DNA of 64,000 nt, taken from assembly GCA_041659505.1 (NCBI GenBank), contig JBAZYF010000001.1, forward strand, positions 321,719 through 385,718. The letters run 5' to 3'. Shown here piece by piece: positions 1 to 18,377 of this stretch. The notes under the pieces were generated by a model. The model was not told the origin of the DNA. It did no database searches and was given only the letters and a program-made list of their open reading frames with translations. The translations under genes were made by a program, and so were the position numbers. Position 1 is the stretch's first letter. Each line of letters starts with the position of its first letter. This stretch comes from Parcubacteria group bacterium. GTDB lineage: Bacteria > Patescibacteriota > Minisyncoccia > Moranbacterales > UBA2206.

Positions 1-901
1 ATTCTTTGATGGCCTTTTCGGTAGCTTGTTCATTGCTAACTTTCCCAGCATTTTGTAACACACCCTTGCCATAATTTTTAACAAATTTATCTAATTCCGC
101 CACCCAATCAACCATACGCATTTTTTGTTTTTCTCGGGCTTTTATTTCAGCCAAATCAAAGAATGCCGAAACCATGCGGTTGAGCCGAAACAATTCGTCT
201 TCGGTAAGATAGTTTTTTGCCACTGTAACTTCAGATAATATTGGCAATACTCCAGCAAAAGTGGTCAGTCCCATAAAATCTTTTTTGGCATCGGCTCTTT
301 CGGCGATTGTTTCCGCGGCGGTGTACTGATTGGTCGCATAATGAAGTTTGTTTTGCACCACCTTAAAAAATGCAATTGATTCAGAACCATGAGGATCATA
401 ATCAATGCTCGTAGCATACAAATCCAACACCTGACGATAAAGAGCTTTTTCACTGCTTCGAATATCACGGATGCGATCAAGCAATTCTTTCCAATAATCT
501 CCCCCGCCGGTCCCCTTGAGCCTCTCATCGTCAATCACAAAACCTTTAACAATATACTCTCTTAATTTTTGCGTCGCCCAAATGCGGAATTGTGTACCGC
601 GTGATGATTTCACGCGATAGCCAACGGAAATAATTACATCAAGATTATAGTTTTTTACAAGGTAATTTTTGCCATCAGAAGCAGTTGTCGAGTATTCCTC
701 GGTAACTGAACTTTCCCCTAGCTCAGCCTCTTTGAAGATATTTTTTAGGTGCAAGCTAATATTATCGACACTGCAATCAAAAAGCTCCGCCATTTGCTTT
801 TGCGAAAGCCAAACGGTCTCGTCTTTCATCCGCACCTCAATCTTAGTCTCGCCGTCTGCGGTGTTATAGATAATTATTTGGTTTTGGATTGCTTTTTTCA
901 T
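1..901 (-). CDS. rhuM: RhuM-family virulence/fitness protein; ATG at 901, C-terminus runs past the window start
   Basis: My own minus-strand translation from ATG at 899-901 gives MKKAIQNQIIIYNTADGETKIEVRMKDETVWLSQKQMAELF...YLVKNYNLDVIISVGYRVKSSRGTQFRIWATQKLREYIVKGFVIDDERLK, which matches the RhuM family block. The frame stays open to position 1. The ORF-track entry 265..534 is an alternate frame of the same DNA. Confidence 0.8.
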   Translation of the reverse strand, partial: MKKAIQNQIIIYNTADGETKIEVRMKDETVWLSQKQMAELFDCSVDNISLHLKNIFKEAELGESSVTEEYSTTASDGKNYLVKNYNLDVIISVGYRVKSSRGTQFRIWATQKLREYIVKGFVIDDERLKGTGGGDYWKELLDRIRDIRSSEKALYRQVLDLYATSIDYDPHGSESIAFFKVVQNKLHYATNQYTAAETIAERADAKKDFMGLTTFAGVLPILSEVTVAKNYLTEDELFRLNRMVSAFFDLAEIKAREKQKMRMVDWVAELDKFVKNYGKGVLQNAGKVSNEQATEKAIKE

Positions 902-904
902 ATT

Positions 905-940
905 TTTTTATTACTGAATTTATTCAGGAATTATTTATAG
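905..940 (-). promoter_or_regulatory. Shared upstream motif (copy 1), directly 5' of the rhuM start
   Basis: TTATTACTGAATTTATTCAGGAATTATTTATAG contains the palindrome CTGAAT-TT-ATTCAG. A similar block occurs at 5064-5100, directly 5' of the AbrB-like gene. Confidence 0.4.
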
Positions 941-1105
941 CCATTAACTCACTTTGTCCAGAAACCGATGTCGGTGCCGAGAAGGAATACGAGAATAGCA
1001 AAAAGAATTTTTATTTTTTTATTTTCTGGATGAAGTAGTACTTGTTTATTTTTTGCAAGTTTGCGCCATTAACTTTTTTATTTAATAAGTTGATTTATTA
1101 TGTAA

Positions 1106-3793
1106 TTATCGTGCCTCAAACTCAATTTTTCTCAACTGAATCATTTCATCTTCTCTTTTTCTCTCTTCTTCCGCTTTTTCTTTGAATTTTTCAATCATTC
1201 TTAAGGCAAATTTTTTAACCCATCCTTCATTTTTATTAACATAATCTTCTAATAATTTGACTTTTTCTTTATAAGCCTCGGAAAAACCGTGTACCCCCAT
1301 AACTGTTCCCGTTGAATACATAACGGACTCGACTCTATCTAAGACTTCCTTATCGGTGGTTTTTTTCACAATTTCAAAGCAAATTTCAAACGGTGGAACA
1401 TTGACAGTTCTCAAGATATCAATTGCATTGTTAAAACTTTTTTTGTCTCCTCGATTAATAATATTTTTTAAAACATCTGCAAAAGATAAATTCATTTTTT
1501 CAATAAATTCACCTAATTCCCAATTATACACGCTCCAGTCTTTTGTCATTTTTTCGGACCATTCAGAAACATATTCAAGATACCCATTTTTTTGATCCTC
1601 ACTGATATATTTTATCAAATCATCATTGAAATGATACGGAATCGCGTTATATCGCCTGTCTTTAAATTTTTTCTTCGGATTTTCTTTATCGGCCTTCTGA
1701 ATTCTTTTTAAAAACACCTCCATCAATTGGTCGAAATATTTTTCACCAATACCTAAGAGAATATTTTGCGCGCTATGATCCAGATCACTCAATTCCACTA
1801 GCCTCTTTAAAATATAATTCCTCAAGCCATTACTCCAATTTGAGATATGCGCCATTCGCTTGCTATTCATAAAATCCAACTCCCTGACATATAAACTCAG
1901 TAATTCTTGGTTGCTTTCCATTTCTTCAATTATTAATTTCTCTATTGCAATAGGATTTTTTTCGAATATTTGCAAAAGTCCAGAAAATAAAGAGGAGTGC
2001 AATAATAATTTATTAGTTCCTTTCGCCCTCAAAAATTTATATTTTCCTTTGCCCACTATGGATTTCCTTAGTAAATCTATGTCGCTTTGCCTGACAACTT
2101 TTTTTATATCTTTTGCATCAATATACATTAAAGAAACGAATGCTGTGGAAAGCAAGTCGGATGATTTAATTTCAATTATTTTCTCGACATATCTATCCCA
2201 AAGTATAACATTGTTTTTTCGCCTAAAACCAGACAGAAAATAATCAACGAAGTTAATGAGTGGTTTTTTATTTTTAAATGCGTCATCTAATAACATTTCG
2301 GCAATCATTGGCTTTTCTTCGGCAATTCTTTGCATAAAATTGTTAAACCCCTGAAGCGTCCACCCCTCAATAACATTTTTATATTTTGCAATATTATCCA
2401 AAGTTTCAATCCATCCATTAACATTGTCGTCATTTATTTTTTTAAGAGAATCATCAATTTTATCATCCTTCTTTTTTTGCCAAGCCTCATAACCTCCTTC
2501 ATGATAAACAACATCGCCAATAAGCATTCTGTATAGCCCGTAGAATTCATCTTCTCTGATCTTTTTTGTTATGTTTTCAATCTTTTTCTTATCAATAAAT
2601 TCATCCCCTTTCGACATCCAATACAGCCTATTCTCAATTTCAAGAATAATTGGTGCTTCGGCTATAATACTGCTTTTTTTATCGAAAATTACTTTTTCAT
2701 AAAATCCTACAATATAATTCAAATCATCCGCAACAAACTTTCTTCCTTTTTCATCAATACTAGAGTGAACTCTGGAAGCGTTTTCAAGAACATTAAGTAA
2801 ACTGATTTTTTCTTTTATATCCTCACTGTGATTAAAAGTTTCCATAATTAAATTAATGGAGTCAACTCTTATCTTTTTCAGGTAATCGGTCGGAGATAAC
2901 GGACCTGATTTAAAGACCATCTTATTCGCCTCGACCATTTCTGTTCCCTCAAACTCAAATTGCAAAAACTCACCCACTACTAGATTTATAATTTCTAAAT
3001 ATTTATCCCGCTTTTTTTCTTTCCACCCCAAGATAATGTCTAAAATTTTTCTTTGTGTCGTGTAACCGATATTTTTCAGAGCGAAGTAATTATATTTGGT
3101 AAGATTTTTTATAGCATCTTTTGATTTTTCAGAAATCTTTCCGTCTATTTTTAGATCAATCAAAATCTCAAAAACATCTTCTGTCTTTATATATTTAATG
3201 TAGCTTAATAATTCAACGCATTTCAAAACAAGATCTTCATAATTCTTGCCATCATATGTTCCAAATTTAGTTTTATATTTTTTGACTCTGTTTGTTTTCT
3301 TGTTTTTAATAATATCCCTGACAATATCCAACGCAATTTCCGGAACTTTATATATAAATTCTTCCAGCAATTCTAATTTTTGAAAAATTTCATCATTATT
3401 TTTATTCTTCATTACCTCCATTTTCATTTTTAGCGACGTACTACTTAAAAATGAATTTGAAATGTCACTATCAATTTTTAGCAGTTTTGAAAAAGCCCTT
3501 TTCTTTTCTTCATGATTAAACAACTTTAAAATTTCTTCAATTTTTATAAAACGGAAAAACATAGTCCCTGCTTCTTTGCTATATTTCACAGTAAAAATAT
3601 CTCTTTCTTTTGAAACCAAGTCCATTTTTAATAAATCTTCTAGATATTTTTTTTGAAAATCTACAGTAACCCCGATAATATTTTCAATCTTTTCCATAAT
3701 TCCACTCTCGGTTTGCATATCTAAATGTCCCAATAAACTGATTATTGAGTAAAAATTATTTAATTTTTTTGGAATATTATTTTTTTTCATCAT
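1106..3793 (-). CDS. Large (895 aa) K/E/I/N-rich helical protein of unknown function; its start overlaps the stop of the upstream nuclease-like gene
   Basis: Long uninterrupted ORF. The MM start at 3788-3793 overlaps the stop of the 249-aa gene by 17 nt, suggesting translational coupling. I see no Walker, HEPN or other recognisable motif. The gene is very AT-rich compared with neighbouring housekeeping genes. Confidence 0.6.
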   Translation of the reverse strand: MMKKNNIPKKLNNFYSIISLLGHLDMQTESGIMEKIENIIGVTVDFQKKYLEDLLKMDLVSKERDIFTVKYSKEAGTMFFRFIKIEEILKLFNHEEKKRAFSKLLKIDSDISNSFLSSTSLKMKMEVMKNKNNDEIFQKLELLEEFIYKVPEIALDIVRDIIKNKKTNRVKKYKTKFGTYDGKNYEDLVLKCVELLSYIKYIKTEDVFEILIDLKIDGKISEKSKDAIKNLTKYNYFALKNIGYTTQRKILDIILGWKEKKRDKYLEIINLVVGEFLQFEFEGTEMVEANKMVFKSGPLSPTDYLKKIRVDSINLIMETFNHSEDIKEKISLLNVLENASRVHSSIDEKGRKFVADDLNYIVGFYEKVIFDKKSSIIAEAPIILEIENRLYWMSKGDEFIDKKKIENITKKIREDEFYGLYRMLIGDVVYHEGGYEAWQKKKDDKIDDSLKKINDDNVNGWIETLDNIAKYKNVIEGWTLQGFNNFMQRIAEEKPMIAEMLLDDAFKNKKPLINFVDYFLSGFRRKNNVILWDRYVEKIIEIKSSDLLSTAFVSLMYIDAKDIKKVVRQSDIDLLRKSIVGKGKYKFLRAKGTNKLLLHSSLFSGLLQIFEKNPIAIEKLIIEEMESNQELLSLYVRELDFMNSKRMAHISNWSNGLRNYILKRLVELSDLDHSAQNILLGIGEKYFDQLMEVFLKRIQKADKENPKKKFKDRRYNAIPYHFNDDLIKYISEDQKNGYLEYVSEWSEKMTKDWSVYNWELGEFIEKMNLSFADVLKNIINRGDKKSFNNAIDILRTVNVPPFEICFEIVKKTTDKEVLDRVESVMYSTGTVMGVHGFSEAYKEKVKLLEDYVNKNEGWVKKFALRMIEKFKEKAEEERKREDEMIQLRKIEFEAR

Positions 3794-4526
3794 TTTTTGA
3801 AATATATTTGAATTGTTCTTTTATATTTTCTGCTTCGTTTATCCTCTCTTGATTTAATAATTCATGTTCCTTTTTTAGCTTGTTGGTGCTTGGATCATTA
3901 ATAATTCTACCCACATCCTCTCCATTATAATTTCTTCGACTATTAACTTCTATAAATTCTCGTCTTAAGTCATTAATAATATCATCTTTACTTGCTAAAT
4001 TATTAGGCATTTGTTCGTTGCTGTACATTTTTTCCCAAATAGCAGGATACAAAGCAATGCATTTTTTTAATGATAAGCTTCCCGGTGACCACCATAAAAT
4101 TTGAGATTGACCAAGTCCCAAATTATTTATTTTTGGTATTGTGTCTAACAACCATTTATCCTGTTCTTTATATTTTGAAACTACACAATAGCAAGTTGGT
4201 CCAGTTTGACCCATTACCAACATGTCGATAATTTTGTCAGCTAGCTCTTTTTTATAAATTTTTTTTCCATACTTTCCTCTCAACTCATGACTCTTGCATT
4301 CAAACCACCAATCATACAGGACTCCATTATGTCTCCATTTTGCAGTTATATCCCTTCCGTTCTGATCTCCTGCTTGCTGAATACATGGCTCTAATATAAA
4401 CGTGCTTAATAAAAAACATTCTTTAATAAATATCTTTAAAAATTCACAAAATATTTTTTCAAACTTTGTTCCCTGTGCTTGAGAATTTTTATTTTTTTTA
4501 GTTTTAGTGAGATTACTTTTTGGCAT
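3777..4526 (-). CDS. Predicted PD-(D/E)xK (restriction-endonuclease-fold) nuclease, 249 aa
   Basis: Motif ...ILEPC...GDQNGRDITAKWRHNGVLYDWWFECKSH places an acidic residue, then D, then E-C-K at typical PD-(D/E)xK spacing. It is the first gene of an overlapping pair with the 895-aa ORF. Confidence 0.5.
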   Translation of the reverse strand: MPKSNLTKTKKNKNSQAQGTKFEKIFCEFLKIFIKECFLLSTFILEPCIQQAGDQNGRDITAKWRHNGVLYDWWFECKSHELRGKYGKKIYKKELADKIIDMLVMGQTGPTCYCVVSKYKEQDKWLLDTIPKINNLGLGQSQILWWSPGSLSLKKCIALYPAIWEKMYSNEQMPNNLASKDDIINDLRREFIEVNSRRNYNGEDVGRIINDPSTNKLKKEHELLNQERINEAENIKEQFKYISKNDEKK

Positions 4527-4549
4527 TTTTTCATGAACTTGAATATTTT

Positions 4550-4870
4550 TTATACAACCCGAATAAAAGTTCCACCCTCTCCGCTGAAGAATTGAAGGGG
4601 GTTTTTGCCATAGGCGTTGTCCAAACTTCTTCCTTTGGACTTATGTTCAACCAAAAGCATCCCCGACCAAAACAAATCAACAAAACCTTGATTTCCTCCG
4701 TATTTTTTCACATGCACTTCAAATTGCGCCAAACGCCTCCGAGTCAATCCAAGCACATTGAAAAATCCATCCCAAAAAGATTTGGCTTCCGCGTCTTCCG
4801 AGCCTTCATCTTCCCATTCTTTGGAAAATTCAATCGCTCTTGATTTTATTTCATTCCATGATAGTGGCAT
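4550..4870 (-). pseudogene. Truncated N-terminal nuclease domain of an MmeI-family (Type IIL) restriction-modification enzyme
   Basis: MPLSWNEIKSRAIEFSKEWEDEGSEDAEAKSFWDGFFNVLGLTRRRLAQFEVHVKKYGGNQGFVDLFWSGMLLVEHKSKGRSLDNAY...FFSG aligns well, as I remember it, with the MmeI N-terminus (MALSWNEIRRKAIEFSKRWED...GFVDLFWPGILLIEMKSRGKDLDKAYDQALDYFSG), including the D-x9-ExK catalytic residues. The ORF stops about 105 aa in, with no helicase-like or methyltransferase part downstream. The likely true start is the internal ATG at 4870, not the ORF-track start. Confidence 0.5.
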
Positions 4871-4880
4871 AAAATTATTC

Positions 4881-5060
4881 TTATTTCTTCCAATCCTTAA
4901 CCAATACCCCTCCCCGAACACGTTTCACTACGACCTTTTGTTTGTCCTTCCAGCCAAGCTCGCGGACGACTTCGATGGGCAGAGTGAGACCGATGGATTT
5001 TCCGCCACCGGATTTGGTTAATTTTCTGATATTACTTTCTTCTGCTTTTCGCCTTGGCAT
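4881..5060 (-). CDS. AbrB/MazE/SpoVT-family small DNA-binding protein (59 aa), antitoxin-like
   Basis: Not in the ORF track because it is under 60 aa. My translation is MPRRKAEESNIRKLTKSGGGKSIGLTLPIEVVRELGWKDKQKVVVKRVRGGVLVKDWKK. The segment KLTKSGGG-SIGLTLPIEVVRELGW is the AbrB/MazE swapped-hairpin signature. Confidence 0.5.
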   Translation of the reverse strand: MPRRKAEESNIRKLTKSGGGKSIGLTLPIEVVRELGWKDKQKVVVKRVRGGVLVKDWKK

Positions 5061-5063
5061 ATG

Positions 5064-5100
5064 TTTTGATTTATTACTGAATTAGTTCCTGAATTTATCC
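5064..5100 (-). promoter_or_regulatory. Shared upstream motif (copy 2), directly 5' of the AbrB-like gene start
   Basis: TTATTACTGAATTAGTTCCTGAATTTATCCTAA. The first 13 nt are identical to copy 1. Confidence 0.4.
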
Positions 5101-5271
5101 TAATTCTACAACAAATCATAGCTTTAGTAAAACAGGCTTTTTCACCAAAAAACCCGCGAATGAGCGGGGTGCTTTAAATTGCTTGGTAATAATTTAGTAA
5201 AACAAAGGTCGCCTTCGCGTACCTTCTGGCGGACTGCGTCACGCCGAAGGTCCGCTACGGCGAATCAATAG

Positions 5272-5358
5272 CGGAAGGAGAGGGATTTGAACCCTCGATG
5301 CCCGTTAAGGCATGCCGCATTTCGAGTGCGGTACTTTCAACCACTCAGCCATCCTTCC
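5272..5358 (-). tRNA. tRNA-Ser(CGA), long variable arm
   Basis: Reverse complement is GGAAGGATGGCTGAGTGGTTGAAAGTACCGCACTCGAAATGCGGC...CGAGGGTTCAAATCCCTCTCCTTCCG. The cloverleaf has a 7-bp acceptor stem, anticodon loop CTCGAAA and an extended variable arm. Confidence 0.8.
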
Positions 5359-5384
5359 AAGACTATCCTGAACTGAAAATTTTG

Positions 5385-5458
5385 TGTTCTCAGGGGGGTT
5401 CGAACCTCCGACCTCAGGTTCCGGAAACCTGCGCTCTATCCAACTGAGCTATGAGAAC
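5385..5458 (-). tRNA. tRNA-Arg(CCG)
   Basis: Reverse complement is GTTCTCATAGCTCAGTTGGATAGAGCGCAGGTTTCCGGAACCTGAGGTCGGAGGTTCGAACCCCCCTGAGAACA, with anticodon loop TTCCGGA. There is one A-C mismatch in the T stem. Confidence 0.7.
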
Positions 5459-5471
5459 TGAAAAACTTTTG

Positions 5472-5544
5472 TGGACTTGAGGAGAGTCGAACTCCTGACC
5501 CCTACAATGCGAATGTAGTGCTCTACCAACTGAGCTACAAGCCC
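5472..5544 (-). tRNA. tRNA-Ala(CGC)
   Basis: Reverse complement is GGGCTTGTAGCTCAGTTGGTAGAGCACTACATTCGCATTGTAGGGGTCAGGAGTTCGACTCTCCTCAAGTCCA. The G3-U70 Ala identity pair is present and the anticodon loop is TTCGCAT. Confidence 0.8.
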
Positions 5545-5644: not shown

Positions 5645-6139
5645 CTAATTCCTGCCACAACCATGGCAGTTTGCGCCGGGACCAAAATTGCCGCCTGGGG
5701 TGATATTTTTCATCATCCCCCGCATCGGTCCTTGCTGTAGCCAGACATTATCCAGCCCGGTCATATCAATAACGATTCCTGTAGCAATAATTGCCAGGAC
5801 AAAACCCAAGATCAAAAACCAAAAATTCTTCTTATAGGAAAAATCAAATTTGCGCATTAAAACTACGCCGATTATTAATGCTAAAATTGCGACCAGCGGA
5901 ACCCAGAGCGGAAAACTGGTGAGCAATTGTTCTAGGCGAAATTGCCCCATCGGTCCGTGCGTACGAAACATAAAGCGCATCAGGCTGACTAAAAAAATTG
6001 CTGTGACGCTTGACGCAACCAATCCAGTGAAAACAAAGATTGATCCAAGGATAAAATAAATCCGGGGGCGCATCTTGATTTGACCTTTGTTAATTTTTTC
6101 CATCACGGCGCTGGAAATATTTACTGATTCTTTTGGCAT
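5645..6139 (-). CDS. Membrane protein in an operon with the ECF sigma factor (putative anti-sigma factor)
   Basis: Several hydrophobic segments. The start overlaps or abuts the stop of the sigma gene. Confidence 0.5.
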   Translation of the reverse strand: MPKESVNISSAVMEKINKGQIKMRPRIYFILGSIFVFTGLVASSVTAIFLVSLMRFMFRTHGPMGQFRLEQLLTSFPLWVPLVAILALIIGVVLMRKFDFSYKKNFWFLILGFVLAIIATGIVIDMTGLDNVWLQQGPMRGMMKNITPGGNFGPGANCHGCGRN

Positions 6140-6714
6140 ACTTTTTTCATTAATAATTTTGCGCGACTGATCCTAGTTGCCACTGTCCCCTGCGGTAGCT
6201 TTAAGATATCACCGATCTCTTCGTAGGATTTTTCTTCGATGCAATATAGCGCTAGCGGCTCGGAATAAGCCAGCGGGAGTTTGGCTAAACATTTTTCCAC
6301 CGCGGCGACAATTTCTTTTTGCGAATAATCTTTTTCCAAATCTTCCACGCTTTCAAAATCAAACTCTGGAAGCATCGGCAGTTCTTTTTGATATTTTTTC
6401 AAAACATTGAGCGCCTCGTTGTGCACGATGCGATAGATCCAGCTGGAAAATTTTTTCTTGAGATTAAACCCATTAAGATTAACAAAGGCGCTGATAAAAG
6501 CTTCCTGCACAACATCTTTGGCGCGGTGCTCATCTTTAACTAAATTATTAGCATAGCGCAAAAGCTTGGATTGATACCGCTCCATCAAGTACGCATAAAA
6601 TTCCTGATTTTCCAATCGAACTTTTTCCACAATCTCTTCATCGGTCAGTTTTTCAAAAGCGTTATTTTTGACAGCTTTATTTTGCATAATCTGATTATAG
6701 CAGAACTTACGCAT
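6121..6714 (-). CDS. RNA polymerase ECF-type sigma-70 factor
   Basis: Region 2 (YQSKLLRYA...DVVQEAFISAF...FSSWIYRIVHNEALN) and region 4 (LALYCIEEKSYEEIGDILKLPQGTVATRISRAKLLM) are recognisable. The annotated ATG lies inside the terminal repeat of element B1. The internal ATG at 6687 (MQNK...), preceded by TATAAT, is an alternative start. Confidence 0.75.
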   Translation of the reverse strand: MRKFCYNQIMQNKAVKNNAFEKLTDEEIVEKVRLENQEFYAYLMERYQSKLLRYANNLVKDEHRAKDVVQEAFISAFVNLNGFNLKKKFSSWIYRIVHNEALNVLKKYQKELPMLPEFDFESVEDLEKDYSQKEIVAAVEKCLAKLPLAYSEPLALYCIEEKSYEEIGDILKLPQGTVATRISRAKLLMKKVCQKNQ

Positions 6715-6879
6715 TCGCTCGAGTCAGCCGCATTTTCTAAAAAAATCTTGTCTGAGAATGCCTTTTTTCTTCAAAATTTTCCATTGGTTGCCGTCGATTG
6801 AGGGAAAATTTTGAAAAGAAAAAAGAGCGTTCGAGTTATTTTTTTAGAAAATACGGCTGTGAGGTGAAATGTATAAGTT
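6704..6879. repeat. Palindromic ~175-bp element, family B, copy 1 (abuts sigma-factor start)
   Basis: Near-identical to 35340-35517. Termini ACTTACGCATT...TTTTCTAAAAA / TTTTTAGAAAAT...ATAAGTT. Contains the internal palindrome TTCAAAATTTTCC / GGAAAATTTTGAA. Confidence 0.6.
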
Positions 6880-6937
6880 CTAAAAATATTAAGCTCCAGC
6901 AGAACTGGAGCTTAAATATAACTTGCCTCGTCAACGC

Positions 6938-7318
6938 TTAGCGATTTTGGCAATTCCCCATTCCCCTGCCGGCACCAGTACCATTTTTCAGTCCCAGTCC
7001 AAGTTCTGCGCGAATTTTTTGCGCTCCGGCTAAATCACCACTTTCTGCTAAACGATGCGCTTCGGCAAATCTCGCAAAATTGCTTTCATTCACAACTTGC
7101 ATCGCTCGACCGCGTCCCGCCATCAGACTTTTCCAAGCATTGTAATCATTATTTTTAAATGCTTCTAGCATTGCTTCGTGTCGCTCCTCCGAATAGTTAG
7201 GTCCCTTAACATTTGGATCGCCCTCGTATGCCTGCGAGCTATTAGCAAACGCCACTGCACCACCCAAAATAATTGCTAGCGCGCCTAATCCTATGATTGT
7301 TTTTTTCGTATTATTCAT
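6938..7318 (-). CDS. Small secreted or membrane-anchored hypothetical protein (126 aa)
   Basis: N-terminal hydrophobic signal/anchor (TIIGLGALAIILGGAVAFA). Nothing else recognisable. Confidence 0.45.
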   Translation of the reverse strand: MNNTKKTIIGLGALAIILGGAVAFANSSQAYEGDPNVKGPNYSEERHEAMLEAFKNNDYNAWKSLMAGRGRAMQVVNESNFARFAEAHRLAESGDLAGAQKIRAELGLGLKNGTGAGRGMGNCQNR

Positions 7319-7336
7319 ATAATTTTATTTGTTTAG

Positions 7337-7471
7337 GACTTACGCATTTGGCTGGGAAAAGTTCGCATGGTAATCTTTTTTAGCATCCTCAGGCTTTTGG
7401 TAAACCAGAGAGGGAAAACCAAGTTGCGGTAACCGTGCTTTCAGAATTTTTTCCAGGCAAATGCGTAAGTC
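7337..7471. repeat. Structured intergenic element, family A, copy 1
   Basis: Conserved ~75-nt core (TTTTTTAGCATCC.CAGG.CTTTTGGTAAACCAG..AGGGAAA.CCAA..TG.GG.AACCGTGCTTT.AGAAT) closed by a 25-bp inverted repeat (GACTTACGCATTTGGCTGGGAAAAG / TTTTTTCCAGGCAAATGCGTAAGTC). Confidence 0.6.
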
Positions 7472-7544
7472 CTATATTAGATTAATTAAGTTTATCGACC
7501 CTTCTAATATTAATACAATCTGAGATGCGTTTTTCTTTCACTTG

Positions 7545-7570
7545 CAAAAAAGCGCCCTTTTGAGGCGCTT
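7545..7570 (-). terminator. Rho-independent terminator after the DUF4340 gene
   Basis: AGCGCC-CTTTTGA-GGCGCT hairpin followed on the minus strand by TTTTTT. Confidence 0.7.
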
Positions 7571-7594
7571 TTAGACAAGTTAATCAGAAAAAAA

Positions 7595-8209
7595 CTAAAT
7601 GCTAGAAGATTTTGAGGTAGGAGTGGTTTTGGTTGGCGCATTGTTGGTAGGTGCGGTCTTGTCCGCACTTGCATCAGGAGCGGATTTTTGCCATTTGGTT
7701 GCGTCCCAAGTCAGTTTGTCTCGCAGGGCGCTTTCCACCAGATAGGTGTTTTTGATTCCGTCTTTTCGCATATAAAACTGGTTAGGCACACTGCTGGCTT
7801 TTCCCACTAGGAAAATATTGTCTTGGCCGTTTTTTGTGATGATCAGTTGAATAGCACTTGCACTGTCAACGCCAAATTTAGCTTGATTAGTTTCGGTTTG
7901 AGAAACCATTTCTCCGACTTTAAGACCCTTGAGTTCCGTAAAAAAGTCAGCCACTTTTTGAGCGTCTGCTTCATCATTGCCAATCAGCCATTTTCCGTCC
8001 TGGAAAGAAAGCGTTTTTTCCGCACTGGCATTTTTAATCACAATTTTCCCCACAGAACTTTCCGAGAAATCCGAAAAATTAAGACTGATATTTTTGGGCG
8101 CGCTGGCATCCTTGTTCCCATTAATCATCCGACCGACAAAAGGCAGGGCAACAATCACGGCCATGACAATAAAAACGCCTGTTAAAATTTTTAGCATTTG
8201 ATTATTCAT
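7595..8209 (-). CDS. DUF4340-like periplasmic protein associated with the GldG-type ABC system
   Basis: N-terminal TM anchor and position directly downstream of the GldFG-like gene. The C-terminus is a T/P/S-rich tail. Confidence 0.5.
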   Translation of the reverse strand: MNNQMLKILTGVFIVMAVIVALPFVGRMINGNKDASAPKNISLNFSDFSESSVGKIVIKNASAEKTLSFQDGKWLIGNDEADAQKVADFFTELKGLKVGEMVSQTETNQAKFGVDSASAIQLIITKNGQDNIFLVGKASSVPNQFYMRKDGIKNTYLVESALRDKLTWDATKWQKSAPDASADKTAPTNNAPTKTTPTSKSSSI

Positions 8210-8229
8210 AGTAAAAATAGGTTAATGAT

Positions 8230-10536
8230 TTAAGCTTCATAGACATCGTTTTTCCTTTTCTTTCGCCTCCAGAGACGCAGTGTGCCATAGCCGGAAACAG
8301 CGAGGAATACGAAAGCCAAGTTTCCGAATTTGATCAAATTGGGATCATCGCTATTGTCAAAAACCAATTTTCGCTCATCCAAATTTTTGATCTTTATATT
8401 CCCCAGCGAACTCTCTTGTCCGAGCCAAGAAAAAGTATCCAGCGCAAAAGACAGATTGGCTTGGCCATTTTGCAAAAACTGATCAGAAATGAAATTAGAA
8501 CTACCGACAACAATCACGTGCGACTGATTTTTATCTCCCGCTTTTGGTGCGAGGGCTAGAGCCAGTACCTTTTGCCCGAGTCCGCTCTGGCTGAATTTCT
8601 GGTTCGGTGTGATGTTAAATTGAGCCGATTGCGTCCCGCCATAAGCCGAGGAACTAAATAGATCAACCGCATCCCAACCCTTCCCATCAATCACGCCACT
8701 ATCCGCAGTCAAAGAACTGCTCCAAGGCAAAAGAATATTTTCCAGCTTAGTGGCAATCGGCAAAGAATTTTTATCCCTAATGGCTTGAATCCAAAATGGA
8801 TAGGGCAAAACAACCCGAGATTGTCCCGCTCCTCCAAAGCCAACCGCTTGATTGGATTTTAGATCATACACAAGATCTTTCCCCACTTCAACGCCCGTCT
8901 GTTCTTTAACAAAATCAGCCAGACTCTTTTCATTCACCGCCACACTCATATTCTCAGGAGAAATTGTCGTTCCATCAATCATAAAAAAGACGCTTCCGCC
9001 ATTGGCGATGAAATCTGCCACGGCTTTTTTTTCTTCATCGGAAAAATCCTGTGTCGGTCCGGCAATCACCAGCACCTTAAGACCTGTTGGGATAGAAAAA
9101 CTTTTGACCGGCGCGGGAGTACTCGTCGCGCTTTTGGTTTTATTCGCAGTTGTAGTGTCTTTGCTTGATGCGGCTGGTTCTGCTCCCGCCACCGCAACTG
9201 GTACAATTTCAAATTGCTTGGCTAATTCTTTTTGTAAAATTGTATAGTCACTAGCCAGCGCCTTCTCGCCATGCCCGGAAACAAATCCGACTTTCGGTTT
9301 ATTCTCCGCCGTCAATTCTTTGATAAAACTGGTCAGTTGGTATTCCAGATCATTGACATTCTGCACAAAAGGGATGCTCTCGTGCTTTCCGCCATAAGAA
9401 ACCGCCAGACCCAAGTAACCCTCATTGACTTGAAACTGCTCCTGAGAAACTACATTGAATTGCATCGGAGTTACGCCAAGAGACGCCGCTTCCTTGGCAA
9501 TTGCAGTGTCGCCCGACGGATTTTTATCGCTGACGTGAATATTGCCTTTGGAAAAAGCCTGATAGTCAGCCAAGATATCTTTCGTTTCTCGCAAGACTGG
9601 TTGCAACTGAGCCGGCAATTTATCGGAAGCATACAGCGTGACATTGACCACGTCCGGCAAATTCCCAGCGATGCCCCGCGTCGTGTCAGACAGTGTATAA
9701 ATTTTTTCCTCAGTCAGATCAAGCCGCCCAGGAATATTTACTCCGATAATATTCGAGAGGACAAAAATTCCCGCAAGCAAACTCACTGCTAATTTGATAT
9801 TGCGAAATGCGGACTTTCGGTTGCCATATTTATTTTTCACAAGTCCGAGATAGGCCAGACCAAGAAAAACCGCTGAGAGCGAAACGAAATACCACAGATC
9901 GCGCAAATCAATCACCCCGCGTGCCATTGAATTGAAATGGGTGGAAAGCGAAAGTTGTTCAAAAAAAGGCGCAAGCTCAAATGGCAATCTGGCGGTCATC
10001 AATTCCGTGCCGGAAATGATCAGAAAAAAACTGGCAATGATCGTTATGAGAAAAGCGGAAATCTGACTGGAAAAAAGACCGGAAATGACAATTCCAAGAC
10101 TCGCGAGAACCGACACAGCAAAAATACTGGCTAAATATTGACTGAAGATTTGTCCCCAATCGAGATTACCAAATTTGCCCAAACTCCAGGCGAGCGGAAA
10201 AATGAAAAGAAGGGTCAGGGCAAAAAAAATCACGATGCTCAAAAATTTTCCGATAATTAGCTGTGCTTGTTGCAAAGGATGAGTGAGCAAAAATTCCAAA
10301 GTGCCTTCACTTTTTTCCTCTGCGAGCGTTCCCATCGTAAGCGCCGGCACGATGATAAGCAATATCCAAGGCAAGATATCAAACAGCCCGCGCAGAGAAG
10401 CTTCGCCGACCAAAAAAACATTACGAAAAAAGAGAAATTCCCAGAGGAATAAAAAGGCCAGAATAATGATGTAGGCGGTCGGATTGTTAAAATAGTTCCG
10501 CAGTTCTTTTTTGATAATCGTTAGAATGTTTTTCAT
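8230..10536 (-). CDS. ABC-2 family permease fused to a GldG-like auxiliary domain
   Basis: The N-terminal ~240 aa form a multi-TM ABC-2 permease. The large extracytoplasmic domain ends in a C-terminal TM (AFVFLAVSGYGTLRLW). The gene sits downstream of an ABC ATPase. Confidence 0.65.
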   Translation of the reverse strand: MKNILTIIKKELRNYFNNPTAYIIILAFLFLWEFLFFRNVFLVGEASLRGLFDILPWILLIIVPALTMGTLAEEKSEGTLEFLLTHPLQQAQLIIGKFLSIVIFFALTLLFIFPLAWSLGKFGNLDWGQIFSQYLASIFAVSVLASLGIVISGLFSSQISAFLITIIASFFLIISGTELMTARLPFELAPFFEQLSLSTHFNSMARGVIDLRDLWYFVSLSAVFLGLAYLGLVKNKYGNRKSAFRNIKLAVSLLAGIFVLSNIIGVNIPGRLDLTEEKIYTLSDTTRGIAGNLPDVVNVTLYASDKLPAQLQPVLRETKDILADYQAFSKGNIHVSDKNPSGDTAIAKEAASLGVTPMQFNVVSQEQFQVNEGYLGLAVSYGGKHESIPFVQNVNDLEYQLTSFIKELTAENKPKVGFVSGHGEKALASDYTILQKELAKQFEIVPVAVAGAEPAASSKDTTTANKTKSATSTPAPVKSFSIPTGLKVLVIAGPTQDFSDEEKKAVADFIANGGSVFFMIDGTTISPENMSVAVNEKSLADFVKEQTGVEVGKDLVYDLKSNQAVGFGGAGQSRVVLPYPFWIQAIRDKNSLPIATKLENILLPWSSSLTADSGVIDGKGWDAVDLFSSSAYGGTQSAQFNITPNQKFSQSGLGQKVLALALAPKAGDKNQSHVIVVGSSNFISDQFLQNGQANLSFALDTFSWLGQESSLGNIKIKNLDERKLVFDNSDDPNLIKFGNLAFVFLAVSGYGTLRLWRRKKRKNDVYEA

Positions 10537-11784: not shown

Positions 11785-12285
11785 TCAAAAACGCTTCTGT
11801 CGGATATGGCAATAGGGTTCGTGTCCATTTTTGGCATAATATTTTTGGTGATAGCTTTCTGCCTCCCAAAAAGTTCCAGCCTTTTCCAGTTTCGTCACCA
11901 CGACATACCCTTTTACCTTGAGCAAACCGATCAGTTTTTCTGCAATGGATTTTTGCTCAGCATCCACGTAAAAAACAGCTGAACGATATTGCTCGCCGAT
12001 GTCCGGTCCCTGGCGATTAAGTTCAGTCGGGTCATGAATTTCGAAAAATAGCCGTGTCAACTGTTCATAGCTTGTCAGCGAGCTATCAAAAGTAACCTCT
12101 AGAGTTTCTGCATGACCGGTTTTTTTGGCTGAAACTTCCTCATAGGTCGGATTCTCCTTGAATCCGCCCATATAACCGACTTTAGTCAAAATGACTCCGG
12201 GCAGATTTTGGAAATAGTACTCCACACCCCAAAAGCAACCGCCGGCGAAATAGGCTTTTTGAATTTTGTTGTTATTATTTTTCAT
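11785..12285 (-). CDS. msrA: Peptide methionine sulfoxide reductase MsrA
   Basis: GGCFWG active-site motif. The likely start is the ATG at 12285 ([20 protein letters not shown]). The ORF-track start at 12318 is a GTG inside msrB. Confidence 0.85.
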
Positions 12286-12649
12286 CTGGTTTAAATTTAA
12301 GCGAAATTGAATTGACACAATGGCGTGTATCTTTCTCGGTCAATTTTTCTCCAAAGAAGATATGCCCGAGATGCGCCCCACAATTCGCACAAACAATTTC
12401 TGTCCGCATTCCGTCCTTGTCCGGAATTCTCTTCACAGACTTTGGCAACTCCGCGTCAAAACTGGGCCAACCGCAACCGGAATCAAATTTGTCATCCGAA
12501 CGATAAAGCGGAGCACCACACCGCCGACAAACAAATGTACCCCGAGCTTTGAAATTATTATACTCACCGGAAAACGGCGCTTCCGTGCCTTTGTGGACAA
12601 TGATGCGCTCTTCTTCGGAAGAAAGTTGGTTGAATTTTTTAGCTTTCAT
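12275..12649 (-). CDS. msrB: Peptide methionine sulfoxide reductase MsrB
   Basis: GCGWPSF and [17 protein letters not shown] motifs with the CxxC zinc site. Confidence 0.85.
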
Positions 12650-12941
12650 ATTATTGAATTATACATTATGTATACGATAAAAGCTCCAAAATCGATGCTG
12701 AATTGTTTTTATTTGAAGGTAGATATAAAAAAAGACCAATCACATATTGGTGGTCTTTTTTTACAGAGGCGCTCTTGAAAGCTTTGAAGTGGCAAATTCT
12801 GCCTTCATATGGCTTTGGCGGACTGCGTCAGCCGTGGGCTTCAGCATGGCGAAAGCGGAGAGTATGGGACGAAATTAGAACATACGTTTCAGTATGCAAT
12901 TAAGGTAAAACAAGAATTTAGCCTCCATTTCTCCTCCTTTC

Positions 12942-13511
12942 TTATTTTTTTCTCTTATATTCCTGTGCCGCCAGCTCTCTGGCTGATTTTCTATCTTTGG
13001 GCAGTTCAATTCCATGTGCCTTAATCATATCTTCCAACAACATCTTTCTCGTTTCATATTCCGTAATTGCATATTTTTTTCTATATCTTATATCTTTAAA
13101 TTTACAGTGAAAAATTTTATTTCTTATAGCATTAATTTCTCTATAAAAACTAGCGCCCTTGATTAATTTTTTATTTTCGGAAAAATATTTTTTCAGTAAT
13201 TTTTCATAGATATTAATTTTTTGTGTAAATGTCAGCTCTTCAAAAGCATACTCCATCATTCCATTGACTTGCGGCGTAACAACGATTGCTCCTCTTTTTA
13301 TGAAATCTGCACATACTTTCTCGATATTTTTTTCACAAAAAAATATTAACATTGAAACAAAATTGATCGCCTTATAATCAGCCTCGTCTATTCCAATACT
13401 TTTGCTAAAAAATTCAATAATCTCAGCTTCGAATTTATCATTAAGTTGAGCTTCTATTGCAAGGCTATCACGAGCTTTTTCCGATAATTTTTCCAGGCTA
13501 CTTTTTGCCAT
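12942..13511 (-). CDS. Hypothetical protein with a candidate HEPN Rx4H motif (189 aa)
   Basis: EINAIRNKIFH contains an R-x4-H motif within a predicted helical protein. The gene is AT-rich and sits next to an unknown 326-aa gene and tRNA-Cys. Confidence 0.4.
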   Translation of the reverse strand: MAKSSLEKLSEKARDSLAIEAQLNDKFEAEIIEFFSKSIGIDEADYKAINFVSMLIFFCEKNIEKVCADFIKRGAIVVTPQVNGMMEYAFEELTFTQKINIYEKLLKKYFSENKKLIKGASFYREINAIRNKIFHCKFKDIRYRKKYAITEYETRKMLLEDMIKAHGIELPKDRKSARELAAQEYKRKK

Positions 13512-13583
13512 TTGATTTGTGAACAGACATCATCCCCCTAGCTTTACTCCTTACAATTTTTTTTGAACGAAGTTAGAATTTAT

Positions 13584-14561: not shown

Positions 14562-14562
14562 G

Positions 14563-14636
14563 AGATGTGGGCAGGATTTGAACCTGCGTATTTTGCTCTG
14601 CAAGCAAATGCCTAAGCCAAGCTCGGCCACCACACC
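14563..14636 (-). tRNA. tRNA-Cys(GCA)
   Basis: Reverse complement is GGTGTGGTGGCCGAGCTTGGCTTAGGCATTTGCTTGCAGAGCAAAATACGCAGGTTCAAATCCTGCCCACATCT. The anticodon loop TTGCAGA gives GCA, and the U73 discriminator is typical of Cys. Confidence 0.7.
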
Positions 14637-14686
14637 GGAAACAATTTAAATAGTCAAATAGTGCCATGTTGAAAAAACAAGAAAAC

Positions 14687-14774: not shown

Positions 14775-14915
14775 AAGAAAATCCTACTTAAACAAGACTC
14801 CAAATAACCACCCCACCCTATTTATTTGCCCATAATTGTATTTATAATAATTTAAGTGAATAATGCCACTTCTTCCCGATTCTAAGCGCTTTTTACTAAT
14901 TGCCTCTAAAAGCCT

Positions 14916-18309: not shown

Positions 18310-18377
18310 ATTTTTATTATTATATTACTTATGAATTACTTGCCCCTATTCTAGCATAACCCCAAATATCCGCAAGC

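What the first reader, a model, noticed from the sequence alone, without database searches (positions are those of the whole stretch)
1..5544. AT-rich accessory island next to a three-tRNA cluster: rhuM, an 895-aa unknown protein, a PD-(D/E)xK nuclease, an MmeI-type fragment and an AbrB-like gene
Every gene from 1 to 5060 is non-housekeeping and visibly more AT-rich than pyk, polA and the other core genes. The block ends at tRNA-Ser, Arg and Ala (5272-5544). RhuM, restriction-enzyme remnants and AbrB/MazE-type regulators are typical of defence and mobile islands that integrate beside tRNA genes. The 895-aa and 249-aa pair has no assignable function, so this is the most plausible place in the window for an uncharacterised defence or addiction module. 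A ~35-bp motif (TTATTACTGAATT...) occurs at 905-940 and 5064-5100. It could mark cassette boundaries or a shared operator.
Basis: partly seen in the sequence, partly recalled or inferred. Interest (0 to 1): 0.75.

Follow-up and report, generated by a model that had tools for sequence, protein, structure and literature searches.

The report
Nuclease plus helical-repeat sensor defence pair
Two overlapping, AT-rich genes next to a tRNA cluster in a Parcubacteria genome look like an undescribed anti-phage or toxin-type module: a small putative nuclease paired with a large helical-repeat protein, from a widespread family that is always joined to some toxic enzyme.

Summary
The gene list is correct: rhuM, an 895-aa and a 249-aa protein with no family, an MmeI N-terminal remnant, an AbrB/MazE-like gene, and tRNA-Ser/Arg/Ala. 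Only the 249-aa plus 895-aa pair (1106-4526) is compositionally foreign, at 30% GC against 41% for the background. The flanking genes have host-like GC.

The 895-aa protein is a confidently modelled alpha-solenoid (pLDDT 89.7). Its family has about 1,450 clusters at 50% identity and no Pfam, NCBIfam or PADLOC model. It occurs patchily in Patescibacteria, Proteobacteria, Firmicutes, Bacteroidota and some archaea.

Across 47 loci the solenoid is always fused to, or tightly coupled with, a toxic enzyme domain: RelA/SpoT, DUF4365 restriction-endonuclease-like, PIN, HNH, or the window's D...ExK protein. A roughly 100-residue adaptor joins the two, and the gene break falls before or after it. Neighbours are often restriction-modification genes, integrases and toxin-antitoxin pairs. 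Phage collections essentially lack the family.

My best reading is a sensor-plus-effector defence module that works like DSR2 or Olokun. No homology to Olokun's OloA or OloB was detected. Nothing has been tested experimentally. The 26-nt shared motif is real but only weakly above chance. tRNA-targeted integration could not be shown.

The parts
2..901 (-). rhuM-family gene. The N-terminal 300 aa are present and the C-terminus runs off the window start. GC is host-like (40.7%). It is a neighbour, not part of the AT-rich module.
   Evidence: PF13310 E 2.9e-99; PADLOC PDC-S05 E 7e-138; GC
907..932 (.). Motif copy 1. On the minus strand it reads ...AATTCCTGAATAAATTCAGTAATAAA, ending 5 nt before the rhuM ATG. 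It contains the palindrome CTGAAT-AA-ATTCAG.
1109..3421 (-). Alpha-solenoid (HEAT-like) core of the 895-aa protein, residues about 125-895. This is the part conserved across the whole family. It includes the near-invariant motif RYDAIPY (around residue 715) and the loop TGVVSGEYG (828-836), and ends in a charged coiled helix.
   Evidence: Alignments A1, A4 and A9; AF2 pLDDT 89.7, pTM 0.82; generic HEAT matches only
3518..3781 (-). Adaptor domain at the N-terminus of the 895-aa protein, residues 5-92. In most relatives the same domain is the C-terminus of the upstream effector protein, or the linker in fused proteins.
   Evidence: Adaptor HMM gives 16 bits and E 8e-5 here. It gives 1e-11 at the same position in the orthologous partner L028/P0022, and 1e-20 to 1e-4 in fused proteins
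1106..3793 (-). Whole 895-aa gene (adaptor plus solenoid). Its start overlaps the end of the 249-aa gene by 17 nt. GC is 30.0%.
3777..4526 (-). 249-aa putative effector. The candidate PD-(D/E)xK nuclease core is residues about 20-150, followed by a helical tail. GC is 29.9%.
   Evidence: Only 3 homologues found. Invariant D59 and E76-C-K78. Predicted alpha-beta-beta-beta-alpha-beta topology, pLDDT 55. The homologue P0013 is again followed by a solenoid gene
4293..4301 (-). Codons for E76-C77-K78 of the 249-aa protein, the candidate catalytic ExK. D59 is encoded at 4350-4352.
   Evidence: Invariant columns in A2
4550..4921 (-). Remnant of an MmeI-type (type IIG) restriction-modification gene. 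Only the first part of the N-terminal domain survives, and it is cut off where the AT-rich module begins. GC is host-like (41.1%).
   Evidence: PF20464 positions 2-78 of 181, E 8e-16; PADLOC REase_MTase_IIG positions 3-89 of 912; GC step at about 4540-4600
4881..5060 (-). 59-aa AbrB/MazE-type (SpoVT-AbrB fold) small DNA-binding protein. It is the first gene after the tRNA operon terminator.
   Evidence: PF04014 at 26.3 bits (cut-off 24.7); weak TIGR02609 doc_partner match
5070..5095 (.). Motif copy 2. On the minus strand it reads AATTCAGGAACTAATTCAGTAATAAA, ending 9 nt before the abrB ATG. It lies between a promoter-like site and the start codon.
5103..5131 (-). Sigma-70-like promoter match upstream of abrB. 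It is a consensus match only.
   Evidence: the number of such sites equals the chance expectation
5153..5168 (-). GC-rich hairpin followed by a T-run. It is the likely terminator of the tRNA operon and separates that operon from the accessory genes.
5271..5544 (-). tRNA-Ser(cga), tRNA-Arg(ccg) and tRNA-Ala(cgc). The 3' end of tRNA-Ser faces the accessory genes.
   Evidence: ARAGORN

Best explanation
Positions 1106-4526 hold a horizontally acquired two-gene conflict module, most likely an anti-phage defence system.

The parts. The upstream gene encodes a small toxic enzyme, here a putative PD-(D/E)xK-type nuclease. The downstream, translationally coupled gene encodes a roughly 100-residue adaptor followed by a roughly 770-residue alpha-solenoid.

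Proposed mechanism (inferred, not shown). The adaptor and solenoid bind the effector and keep it inactive. The solenoid acts as a protein-binding sensor surface. Binding of an invader-derived ligand, most plausibly a phage protein, changes the complex so that the effector is released or activated. The effector then cuts nucleic acid, stopping phage replication or killing the infected cell. No NTPase is involved in the window's version.

The module appears to have landed inside an older accessory locus beside the tRNA cluster, truncating an MmeI-type restriction gene. rhuM and abrB are separate, resident accessory genes.

Confidence. I put about 0.75 on the pair being a mobile conflict module (defence or addiction). 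The figure of 0.55 given below is for the specific sensor-plus-effector defence reading.
For: Shown by tools:
1. The pair is compositionally foreign (GC 30% against 41.4%, z -3.9; tetranucleotide z 6.2) while its neighbours are not.
2. The pair is conserved as a pair. The only distant homologue of the 249-aa protein with context (P0013, 38% identity, a Deltaproteobacteria MAG) is followed after 1 nt by an 871-aa homologue of the 895-aa protein (hhalign E 1e-127). It sits beside an integrase and excisionase.
3. The solenoid family is large and unannotated. There are 1,457 clusters at E<=1e-3 and 721 at E<=1e-30, and no Pfam, NCBIfam or PADLOC model for the window protein.
4. In 47 loci the solenoid always has an enzymatic partner. 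The partners are RelA_SpoT (13, all fused), DUF4365 restriction-endonuclease-like (10), PIN_12 (7), HNH (5) and the window type (2), plus a few unassigned. Among 44 further long proteins, 23 carry DUF4365, 11 carry RelA_SpoT and 1 carries NB-ARC.
5. Separate upstream genes abut or overlap the solenoid gene (gaps of -14 to +7 nt). Some are homologous to the N-terminal domains of fused proteins, which is fusion/fission evidence for physical interaction.
6. A shared adaptor domain links non-homologous effectors to the solenoid. It lies at the effector's C-terminus, at the solenoid's N-terminus (as in the window) or between the two in fusions.
7. The AF2 model is confident (pLDDT 89.7) and all alpha-solenoid, with only generic HEAT matches.
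8. Immediate neighbours are rich in restriction-modification and related genes: N6_N4_Mtase in 8, Eco57I/MmeI-type in 5, plus HsdR, HsdS, DpnII, AlwI and SocA_Panacea. In cultured strains the module is cargo next to an integrase with P4-like genes (Legionella adelaidensis) or next to VapBC and a SIR2 protein (R. rhizogenes plasmid).
9. It is essentially absent from phages: 1 partial hit in 2.9 million viral contigs and none in 50,697 phage records.

From the literature: DSR2 (SIR2 plus a HEAT-like solenoid that senses a monomeric tail-tube protein; PMC11087589, PMC11850899) and Olokun (adaptin-like OloA plus PD-(D/E)xK OloB in a 2:2 complex; bioRxiv 10.1101/2025.07.10.664194) show that solenoid-plus-effector defence systems exist.
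Against: - No experiment exists for any member.
- Defence-island association was counted, not tested against a genomic background.
- The nuclease assignment of the 249-aa protein is not statistically supported, and its model is poor (pLDDT 55).
- No trigger, ligand or oligomeric state is known.
- Solenoids are generic scaffolds, so 'sensor' is an inference by analogy.
- The window's adaptor hit is modest (16 bits).
- Several loci have no obvious defence neighbours.
- Four loci have LexA-like neighbours, which could point to a DNA-damage or mobile-element role instead.
Confidence: 0.55

Rival explanations
1. It is a plain toxin-antitoxin (addiction) module. The small enzyme is a toxin and the large solenoid is simply its protein antitoxin, stabilising the mobile element that carries it. 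There is no invader sensing.
For: The pair is tightly coupled, with a toxic-type enzyme and a non-enzymatic partner. RelA_SpoT (toxSAS), PIN and HNH are classic toxin domains. The module sits next to integrases and other toxin-antitoxin pairs. Fused toxin-antitoxin proteins are known (CapRel, PMC9712102).
Against: A roughly 770-residue conserved solenoid is far larger than needed to neutralise a 150-residue enzyme. The gene order (toxin first) and the frequent single-polypeptide fusions are unusual for classical type II toxin-antitoxin pairs, in which a labile antitoxin is degraded. One relative replaces the effector with an NB-ARC NTPase, where repeat domains normally act as sensors. The two models are not exclusive, since CapRel is both.
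Confidence: 0.2
2. It is a divergent Olokun system: OloA-like solenoid plus OloB-like nuclease. That would make it a new member of an already validated defence family.
For: The overall plan is the same, an alpha-solenoid plus a PD-(D/E)xK nuclease in two genes. The PADLOC OloA model hits 10 of 55 family members, with a best E of 1e-6.
Against: The OloA hits are partial (profile positions about 50-320 of 596) and weak (15-22 bits), and the window protein has none. The family profile against validated E. coli OloA gives hhalign probability 0.3% and an HMM score of -0.6 bits. The 249-aa profile against OloB gives nothing, and no effector hit OloB. Gene order is reversed. Olokun is not reported with RelA/SpoT, PIN or HNH swaps.
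Confidence: 0.12
3. It is an accessory to restriction-modification systems, for example a back-up that fires when the neighbouring restriction enzyme is inhibited, rather than an autonomous system.
For: In the window the module directly follows an MmeI-type remnant. In L012 and L014 a full-length Eco57I/MmeI-type enzyme lies immediately upstream, in L012 overlapping the effector gene. Type I systems lie directly upstream in L003 and L008.
Against: Many loci have no adjacent restriction-modification genes (for example Legionella, and L009). The associated restriction-modification types vary (I, II, IIG), as expected from defence-island clustering rather than a fixed partnership. In the window the restriction gene is dead while the module is intact.
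Confidence: 0.08
4. The solenoid is a housekeeping or regulatory scaffold and the association with enzymes is incidental.
For: HEAT-like solenoids are common scaffolds. The mechanism is not shown.
Against: It was found in only 55 of 185,579 species-representative genomes, scattered across unrelated phyla and archaea. The window copy has foreign composition. The family is invariably linked to toxin-type domains.
Confidence: 0.03

Closest known systems
DSR2 (defence-associated sirtuin 2, Bacillus subtilis)
   Same: An N-terminal toxic effector is joined through a middle region to a large C-terminal HEAT-like alpha-solenoid. There is no NTPase. In DSR2 the solenoid captures a monomeric phage tail-tube protein and this switches the effector on (PMC11087589, PMC11850899). 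The fused relatives of the window protein, at about 1,000 aa, have the same size and layout.
Olokun (OloA + OloB; Millman et al. 2022)
   Same: It is a two-gene system with an adaptin/HEAT-like solenoid protein plus a PD-(D/E)xK nuclease, which form a complex. It is validated as anti-phage in E. coli. The PADLOC OloA model hits some relatives weakly.
   Different: No detectable homology was found to validated E. coli OloA or OloB. Gene order is opposite. OloB carries its helical interaction domain N-terminally, whereas here the adaptor is C-terminal to the effector or N-terminal to the solenoid. The effector repertoire here is much wider.
CapRel-type fused toxSAS (PADLOC PDC-S33)
   Same: Thirteen of 47 relatives start with a RelA/SpoT (toxSAS-like) domain that hits PDC-S33. 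In CapRel a C-terminal domain both inhibits the toxin and senses a phage capsid protein (PMC9712102).
   Different: The PDC-S33 model is 349 positions long and matches only the RelA/SpoT part. The C-terminal partner here is a 770-residue solenoid rather than a small zinc-finger-like domain. The window pair has no RelA/SpoT domain.
Short prokaryotic Argonaute systems (SPARDA / SPARHA)
   Same: They use the same interchangeable effector set, DUF4365 nuclease or HNH, attached to a sensor through an adaptor domain (PMC10810196, PMC12738770). The PADLOC Aga_REase model hits the DUF4365 effectors.
   Different: The sensor here is an alpha-solenoid, not an Argonaute. There is no APAZ domain and no evidence of nucleic-acid guides.

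Membership tests
Olokun | OloA-type solenoid protein recognised by the OloA model or homologous to validated OloA | tested here: not met
   The window protein has no PADLOC hit at E<=0.1. The family profile against E. coli OloA gives hhalign probability 0.3% and HMM -0.6 bits. Only 10 of 55 relatives give weak, partial OloA-model hits.
Olokun | OloB-type nuclease (N-terminal helical domain plus PD-(D/E)xK) | tested here: not met
   The 249-aa profile against E. coli OloB shows no similarity. OloB was not among the effector hits.
Olokun | Two-gene operon of a solenoid plus a PD-(D/E)xK nuclease | tested here: inconclusive
   The architecture is analogous but gene order is reversed, and the nuclease fold of the 249-aa protein is not proven.
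DSR2 / defence-associated sirtuins | N-terminal SIR2 NADase domain | tested here: not met
   There is no SIR2 in the window pair or in the 47 + 44 relatives scanned.
DSR2 / defence-associated sirtuins | C-terminal HEAT-like solenoid that binds a phage protein | not testable with these tools
   The solenoid fold is predicted, but ligand binding needs an experiment. No specific structural match to DSR2 was listed.
PD-(D/E)xK nuclease superfamily (249-aa protein) | Catalytic D ... (D/E)xK motif on an alpha-beta-beta-beta-alpha-beta core | tested here: inconclusive
   D59 and E76-C-K78 are invariant in 3 sequences and the predicted topology fits (pLDDT 55). There is no significant match in Pfam, PDB sequences or Foldseek (best E 0.05). 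hhalign against the DUF4365 group gives probability 0.2%, although the motifs align in register.
STAND / Avs-type NTPase sensors | Central P-loop NTPase (NACHT/NB-ARC) between effector and repeat sensor | tested here: not met
   No NTPase domain occurs in either window protein. Only 1 of 44 long relatives carries NB-ARC.
tRNA-integrated genomic island | Integrase gene and a direct repeat of the tRNA 3' end at the far boundary | tested here: inconclusive
   No repeat of any of the three tRNA 3' ends lies in the window, and no integrase lies in 1-5544. The left boundary is beyond the window, and source or sister contigs could not be retrieved.
tRNA-integrated genomic island | Composition different from the host | tested here: met
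   This holds only for 1106-4526 (GC z -3.9, tetranucleotide z 6.2), not for rhuM, the MmeI remnant or abrB.
RhuM family (PF13310; PADLOC candidate PDC-S05) | Match to the family model above cut-off | tested here: met
   331.9 bits against a cut-off of 33.7; PDC-S05 E 7e-138. The gene is incomplete in the window.
MmeI-type (type IIG) restriction-modification enzyme | Full N-terminal nuclease, methyltransferase and specificity domains (about 900 aa) | tested here: not met
   Only 123 aa are present, matching positions 2-78 of the 181-position MmeI_N model. There is no methyltransferase part. It is a remnant.
AbrB/MazE (SpoVT-AbrB) antitoxin-like regulators | Match to PF04014 above cut-off; adjacent cognate toxin | tested here: inconclusive
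   The domain match is just above cut-off (26.3 against 24.7 bits). No MazF or Doc toxin lies next to it. The next gene is the MmeI remnant.

The most novel reading that the evidence does not exclude
The solenoid family defines a new, widespread, NTPase-independent class of prokaryotic immune sensors. A large HEAT-like receptor is plugged through a dedicated roughly 100-residue adaptor into interchangeable killer domains: RelA/SpoT, PIN, HNH, two kinds of restriction-endonuclease-like nuclease, and occasionally NB-ARC. It is especially common in the tiny genomes of Patescibacteria (CPR), where few defence systems are known. The window carries a rare variant with a previously unseen nuclease family and the adaptor moved onto the sensor gene.
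Probability: 0.4. Interest if true: 0.75.

Novelty: new variant of a known kind. Interest (0 to 1): 0.62.

Why it matters
If the pair is a defence system, it adds a large family to the short list of sensors that recognise invaders without an NTPase, alongside DSR2, CapRel and possibly Olokun. The family has about 1,450 sequence clusters and no annotation model.

It would also give a clean natural example of plug-in effector exchange through one adaptor domain.

It would be one of the few candidate immune systems typical of Patescibacteria/CPR, whose phage biology is almost unknown.

The family also occurs in cultured Legionella, Rhizobium, Sphingobium and cyanobacterial replicons, so the idea can be tested directly. 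If it turns out to be only a toxin-antitoxin pair, it is still an unusual one, with a giant antitoxin.

Tried and rejected
1. An exact-sequence look-up of the 895-aa protein failed because the deposited protein starts at the second Met. P0001 (894 aa) worked, but DNA of the 656-kb source contig was not returned.
2. I tried three ways to see the island's left end or sister genomes:
   - A look-up of the 164-aa core neighbour gave only short contigs that end at the tRNA cluster.
   - An exact 40-mer from the window start was absent from the metagenome collection.
   - A tRNA-Ser 40-mer hit only unrelated genomes with a different context.
   Synteny therefore remains untested.
3. A second word-index search with the alignment returned no new homologues. 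The exhaustive HMM search was needed instead.
4. The afdb50 fold library was unavailable.
6. The 249-aa protein gave nothing significant in the PDB profile search, Foldseek or hhalign against DUF4365.
7. The Olokun lead was followed to the validated E. coli system and rejected at the sequence level.
8. The idea that the motif marks cassette boundaries was rejected, because the GC step and the right-hand copy do not coincide. Its statistical support is weak.
9. Six literature searches for the family found no description.

Full report
**What is in the window**

All annotated features in 1-5544 lie on the minus strand.
- A rhuM-family gene occupies 2-901 and runs off the window start (PF13310, E 2.9e-99; PADLOC candidate PDC-S05).
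- A 204-nt spacer follows.
- An 895-aa ORF lies at 1106-3793 and a 249-aa ORF at 3777-4526. The two overlap by 17 nt.
- A 123-aa ORF at 4550-4921 matches only positions 2-78 of the 181-position MmeI_N model. It is a dead remnant of a type IIG restriction-modification gene.
- A 59-aa AbrB/MazE-type ORF lies at 4881-5060 (26.3 bits against a cut-off of 24.7).
- A GC-rich hairpin with a T-run (5153-5168) probably terminates the tRNA operon.
- tRNA-Ser(cga), tRNA-Arg(ccg) and tRNA-Ala(cgc) lie at 5271-5544.

The 895-aa and 249-aa proteins match nothing in Pfam, NCBIfam or PADLOC.

**Composition**

The claim that everything from 1 to 5060 is AT-rich is not right.
- The background (5.6-64 kb) is 41.4 +/- 2.9% GC in 1-kb windows.
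- The 895-aa gene is 30.0% GC, the 249-aa gene 29.9% and the spacer 27%. For 1106-4526 this gives z = -3.9, and the tetranucleotide distance to the rest of the contig has z = 6.2.
- rhuM (40.7%), the MmeI remnant (41.1%) and abrB (46.7%) are host-like.
- The GC steps lie at about 880-1000 and about 4540-4600. The foreign DNA is therefore just the two-gene module plus its downstream spacer.

The right-hand step coincides with the point where the MmeI-type gene is cut off. The simplest history is that the module landed in, or replaced most of, a resident restriction gene inside an older accessory locus.

**The motif**

Positions 907-932 and 5070-5095 agree at 22 of 26 positions, with a 14-nt exact core.
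- On the coding (minus) strand the core AATTCAGTAATAAA sits 8 nt upstream of the rhuM ATG and 11 nt upstream of the abrB ATG.
- Each copy carries a second ATTCAG/CTGAAT half-site. The arrangement is inverted at rhuM and direct at abrB.
- This placement fits a shared operator or leader, plausibly bound by the AbrB-type protein.
- The statistics are weak. Some pair among the 61 upstream regions of the window shares an exact 14-mer in about 6% of shuffles, and a second, unrelated pair does so in the real data.
- The copies do not coincide with the composition boundaries, so they are not cassette ends.

**The 895-aa protein belongs to a large unannotated family**

- A word-index search found only nine relatives. 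Three of them carry an N-terminal RelA_SpoT domain.
- An exhaustive profile search of 1.84 billion representative proteins found 1,457 clusters at E<=1e-3 and 721 at E<=1e-30.
- These fall into two length classes: about 745-820 aa, and about 960-1,090 aa with an extra N-terminal domain.
- A scan of one genome per species found 55 loci in 185,579 species. They occur in many Patescibacteria, and also in Gamma-, Alpha- and Deltaproteobacteria, Nitrospirae, Firmicutes, Bacteroidota, Anaerolineae, Micrarchaeota and a Promethearchaeote.
- Five plasmid or secondary-replicon records of cultured organisms carry the family (Legionella adelaidensis, Rhizobium rhizogenes, Sphingobium, Pseudanabaena, Aulosira).
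- Phage collections essentially lack it: one partial hit in 2.9 million viral contigs and none in 50,697 phage genomes.

**Structure**

With a 92-sequence alignment, AlphaFold2 gives a confident model (mean pLDDT 89.7, pTM 0.82).
- The N-terminal 75 residues are helical and modelled with low confidence.
- The rest is a continuous alpha-solenoid of about 40 helices with two beta-hairpins.
- A profile search of PDB sequences finds nothing.

No nucleotide-binding or catalytic motif is evident. The most conserved positions are R309, R697, an RYDAIPY segment and a TGVVSGEYG loop near the C-terminus.

**The partner is always a toxic enzyme, and it is interchangeable**

I extracted the upstream gene or the fused N-terminal domain from 47 loci.

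| Partner domain | Loci (of 47) | Arrangement |
|---|---|---|
| RelA_SpoT | 13 | all fused |
| DUF4365 (restriction-endonuclease-like) | 10 | separate or fused |
| PIN_12 | 7 | separate |
| HNH | 5 | separate |
| Window-type 249-aa protein | 2 | separate |
| Unassigned | remaining 10 | includes L035 (weak type I HsdR N-terminal nuclease hit), L058, and a 442-453-aa type with a D...ExS/Q motif |

- In 44 further long family members, 23 carry DUF4365, 11 carry RelA_SpoT and 1 carries NB-ARC.
- Separate partner genes abut or overlap the solenoid gene, with gaps of -14 to +7 nt.
- One separate type (319 aa, for example L008) is homologous along its whole length to the N-terminal domains of fused proteins in L026, L030, L034, L042 and L048. 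This is direct fusion/fission evidence that effector and solenoid work as one unit.
- PADLOC recognises only the effector parts: PDC-S33 for RelA_SpoT, Aga_REase for DUF4365 and ZorE-like for HNH.

**A common adaptor**

The HNH, DUF4365 and 442-aa effectors are unrelated to one another. Even so, they share a C-terminal segment of about 100 residues. An HMM of this segment finds it in four places:
- between the DUF4365 domain and the solenoid in fused proteins (E 1e-20 to 1e-4);
- in the NB-ARC fusion;
- at the N-terminus (residues about 5-93) of the 857-895-aa solenoid proteins (P0022/L028 1e-11, P0006 2e-11, P0045 2e-6);
- at residues 5-92 of the window protein (16 bits, E 8e-5).

The family plan is therefore effector, adaptor, solenoid. 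The gene break falls after the adaptor (the most common case), before it (the window and its Deltaproteobacteria counterpart), or nowhere (fusions).

**The 249-aa protein**

- Only three homologues exist in 5.8 billion clustered proteins.
- The one with usable context is P0013 (38% identity). It is followed after 1 nt by an 871-aa solenoid (hhalign E 1e-127 to the family) and sits beside a tyrosine integrase and an excisionase-type HTH gene. The pair therefore travels as a unit.
- Invariant D59 and E76-C-K78, together with a predicted helix, three strands, helix, strand topology, fit a PD-(D/E)xK nuclease.
- The model is poor (pLDDT 55), and no comparison reaches significance.
- hhalign does place D59 and ExK opposite the conserved D and QxK of the DUF4365 group.

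I treat 'nuclease' as likely but unproven.

**Genomic neighbourhood**

- The immediately adjacent genes include complete type I systems (L003, L008), AlwI plus methylases (L004) and a methylase-helicase set (L006).
- Among 148 + 10 flanking proteins there are 8 N6_N4 methylases and 5 Eco57I/MmeI-type enzymes. There are also HsdR, HsdS, DpnII, SNF2-PLD and UvrD-type helicases, SocA/Panacea antitoxins and 4 LexA-like repressors.
- In Legionella adelaidensis the PIN-plus-solenoid pair is the cargo next to an integrase with P4-like primase genes.
- In the R. rhizogenes plasmid a 1,310-aa fusion lies among VapBC, an integrase, IS elements and a 1,108-aa SIR2 protein.

This is the usual signature of defence and addiction islands. 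I did not test it against a genomic background.

**How it most likely works**

Shown:
- obligatory pairing of the solenoid with toxic domains;
- exchange of those domains;
- fusion and fission between the two parts;
- a shared adaptor;
- mobility and foreign composition;
- absence from phages.

Inferred:
- The adaptor-solenoid holds the effector inactive and acts as the sensing surface.
- Binding of an invader product, most plausibly a phage protein as in DSR2, activates the effector.
- The effector then degrades nucleic acid. In relatives, it instead pyrophosphorylates tRNA or nucleotides, or cleaves RNA.
- The outcome is abortive infection or direct restriction.

A pure toxin-antitoxin reading, with the solenoid as a giant antitoxin, is the main rival and is not exclusive. 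CapRel combines both roles.

**Comparison with known systems**

- DSR2 has the same layout (effector, middle region, HEAT-like solenoid, no NTPase) and a known trigger (PMC11087589, PMC11850899). It uses SIR2 and shows no detectable similarity to this family.
- Olokun is the closest two-gene analogue. It has an adaptin-like OloA plus a PD-(D/E)xK OloB in a 2:2 complex (bioRxiv 10.1101/2025.07.10.664194) and is validated in E. coli (Millman et al., supplement).
- The PADLOC OloA model hits 10 of 55 family members weakly and partially.
- I recovered E. coli OloA and OloB from NZ_CP100901. The family profile shows no similarity to OloA (hhalign probability 0.3%, HMM -0.6 bits), and the 249-aa profile shows none to OloB.
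- Gene order is also opposite. I therefore do not file the module under Olokun.
- Six full-text searches found no paper describing this family. That is a limit of the library, not proof of absence.

**What remains open**

- tRNA-targeted integration is not shown. The window has no integrase and no repeat of a tRNA 3' end, and the left boundary lies beyond the window.
- Assembly contigs from two other samples that carry the identical module break at about 5233-5258, just beside tRNA-Ser. This hints at strain-level variation there but proves nothing.
- Synteny in sister genomes could not be examined.

**Verdict**

The finding is a new variant of a known kind of system: a solenoid sensor plus an exchangeable effector. 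It belongs to a large family that lacks any annotation model. The evidence is purely computational. The family is present in cultured bacteria, so the hypothesis can be tested directly.

Noticed in passing
window 26682-34709 (-): A single 2,675-aa ORF, by far the largest in the window. I did not examine it.
   Followed up: no
window about 12600-13850, 18350-19850, 50350-52600: Further low-GC patches (33-35% against a 41% background). They are milder than the module and could be other acquired genes.
   Followed up: no
window 14562-14774 (-): A second tRNA pair, Cys(gca) and Ser(gga). The 3' part of this tRNA-Ser resembles that of tRNA-Ser(cga) (20 of 24 positions).
   Followed up: no
window upstream of 6121-6714 (-) and of 34947-35339 (-): These two unrelated upstream regions also share an exact 14-mer. 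This is why the rhuM/abrB motif cannot be called significant on length alone.
   Followed up: partly
L012:141-4141 and L014:2988-9992: A full-length Eco57I/MmeI-type (type IIG) enzyme lies immediately upstream of the effector gene. In L012 it overlaps the effector gene, and in L014 it is preceded by a PLD-SNF2 helicase. This echoes the MmeI remnant directly upstream of the module in the window, and may indicate a recurrent linkage rather than coincidence.
   Followed up: partly
flanks of the module in 4 of 45 loci (alignment A5): LexA-like repressors (LexA_DNA_bind plus Peptidase_S24) are among the four nearest neighbours. This may reflect an SOS-controlled mobile element context.
   Followed up: no
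P0154 (1,274 aa): One family member has an NB-ARC STAND NTPase in front of the adaptor and solenoid. It links this NTPase-free family to NLR-like sensors.
   Followed up: partly
L071 (R. rhizogenes pC6.5d) 6101-10033 and 12264-15590: A 1,310-aa fusion of the solenoid is annotated 'poly-gamma-glutamate hydrolase family protein', which may be yet another effector type. A 1,108-aa SIR2 protein (DSR-like) lies 2 kb away.
   Followed up: no
L001, L002, L067 (other samples, identical sequence): Independent assemblies carrying the identical module end at window positions of about 5233-5258 (next to tRNA-Ser) and about 5051. This is consistent with assembly-graph branching, and so strain variation, at this junction.
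   Followed up: partly
L073 (E. coli ET826) 7070-8050: In this E. coli strain the Olokun oloA gene is interrupted by an IS5-family element next to an integrase. It is an inactivated copy of a validated defence system.
   Followed up: no
window 4881-5060 and 2-901: The AbrB-type protein gives a weak hit to the 'doc_partner' antidote family. The same leader motif precedes rhuM 4 kb away. The two may once have been an adjacent regulator-toxin pair, split by later insertions.
   Followed up: no
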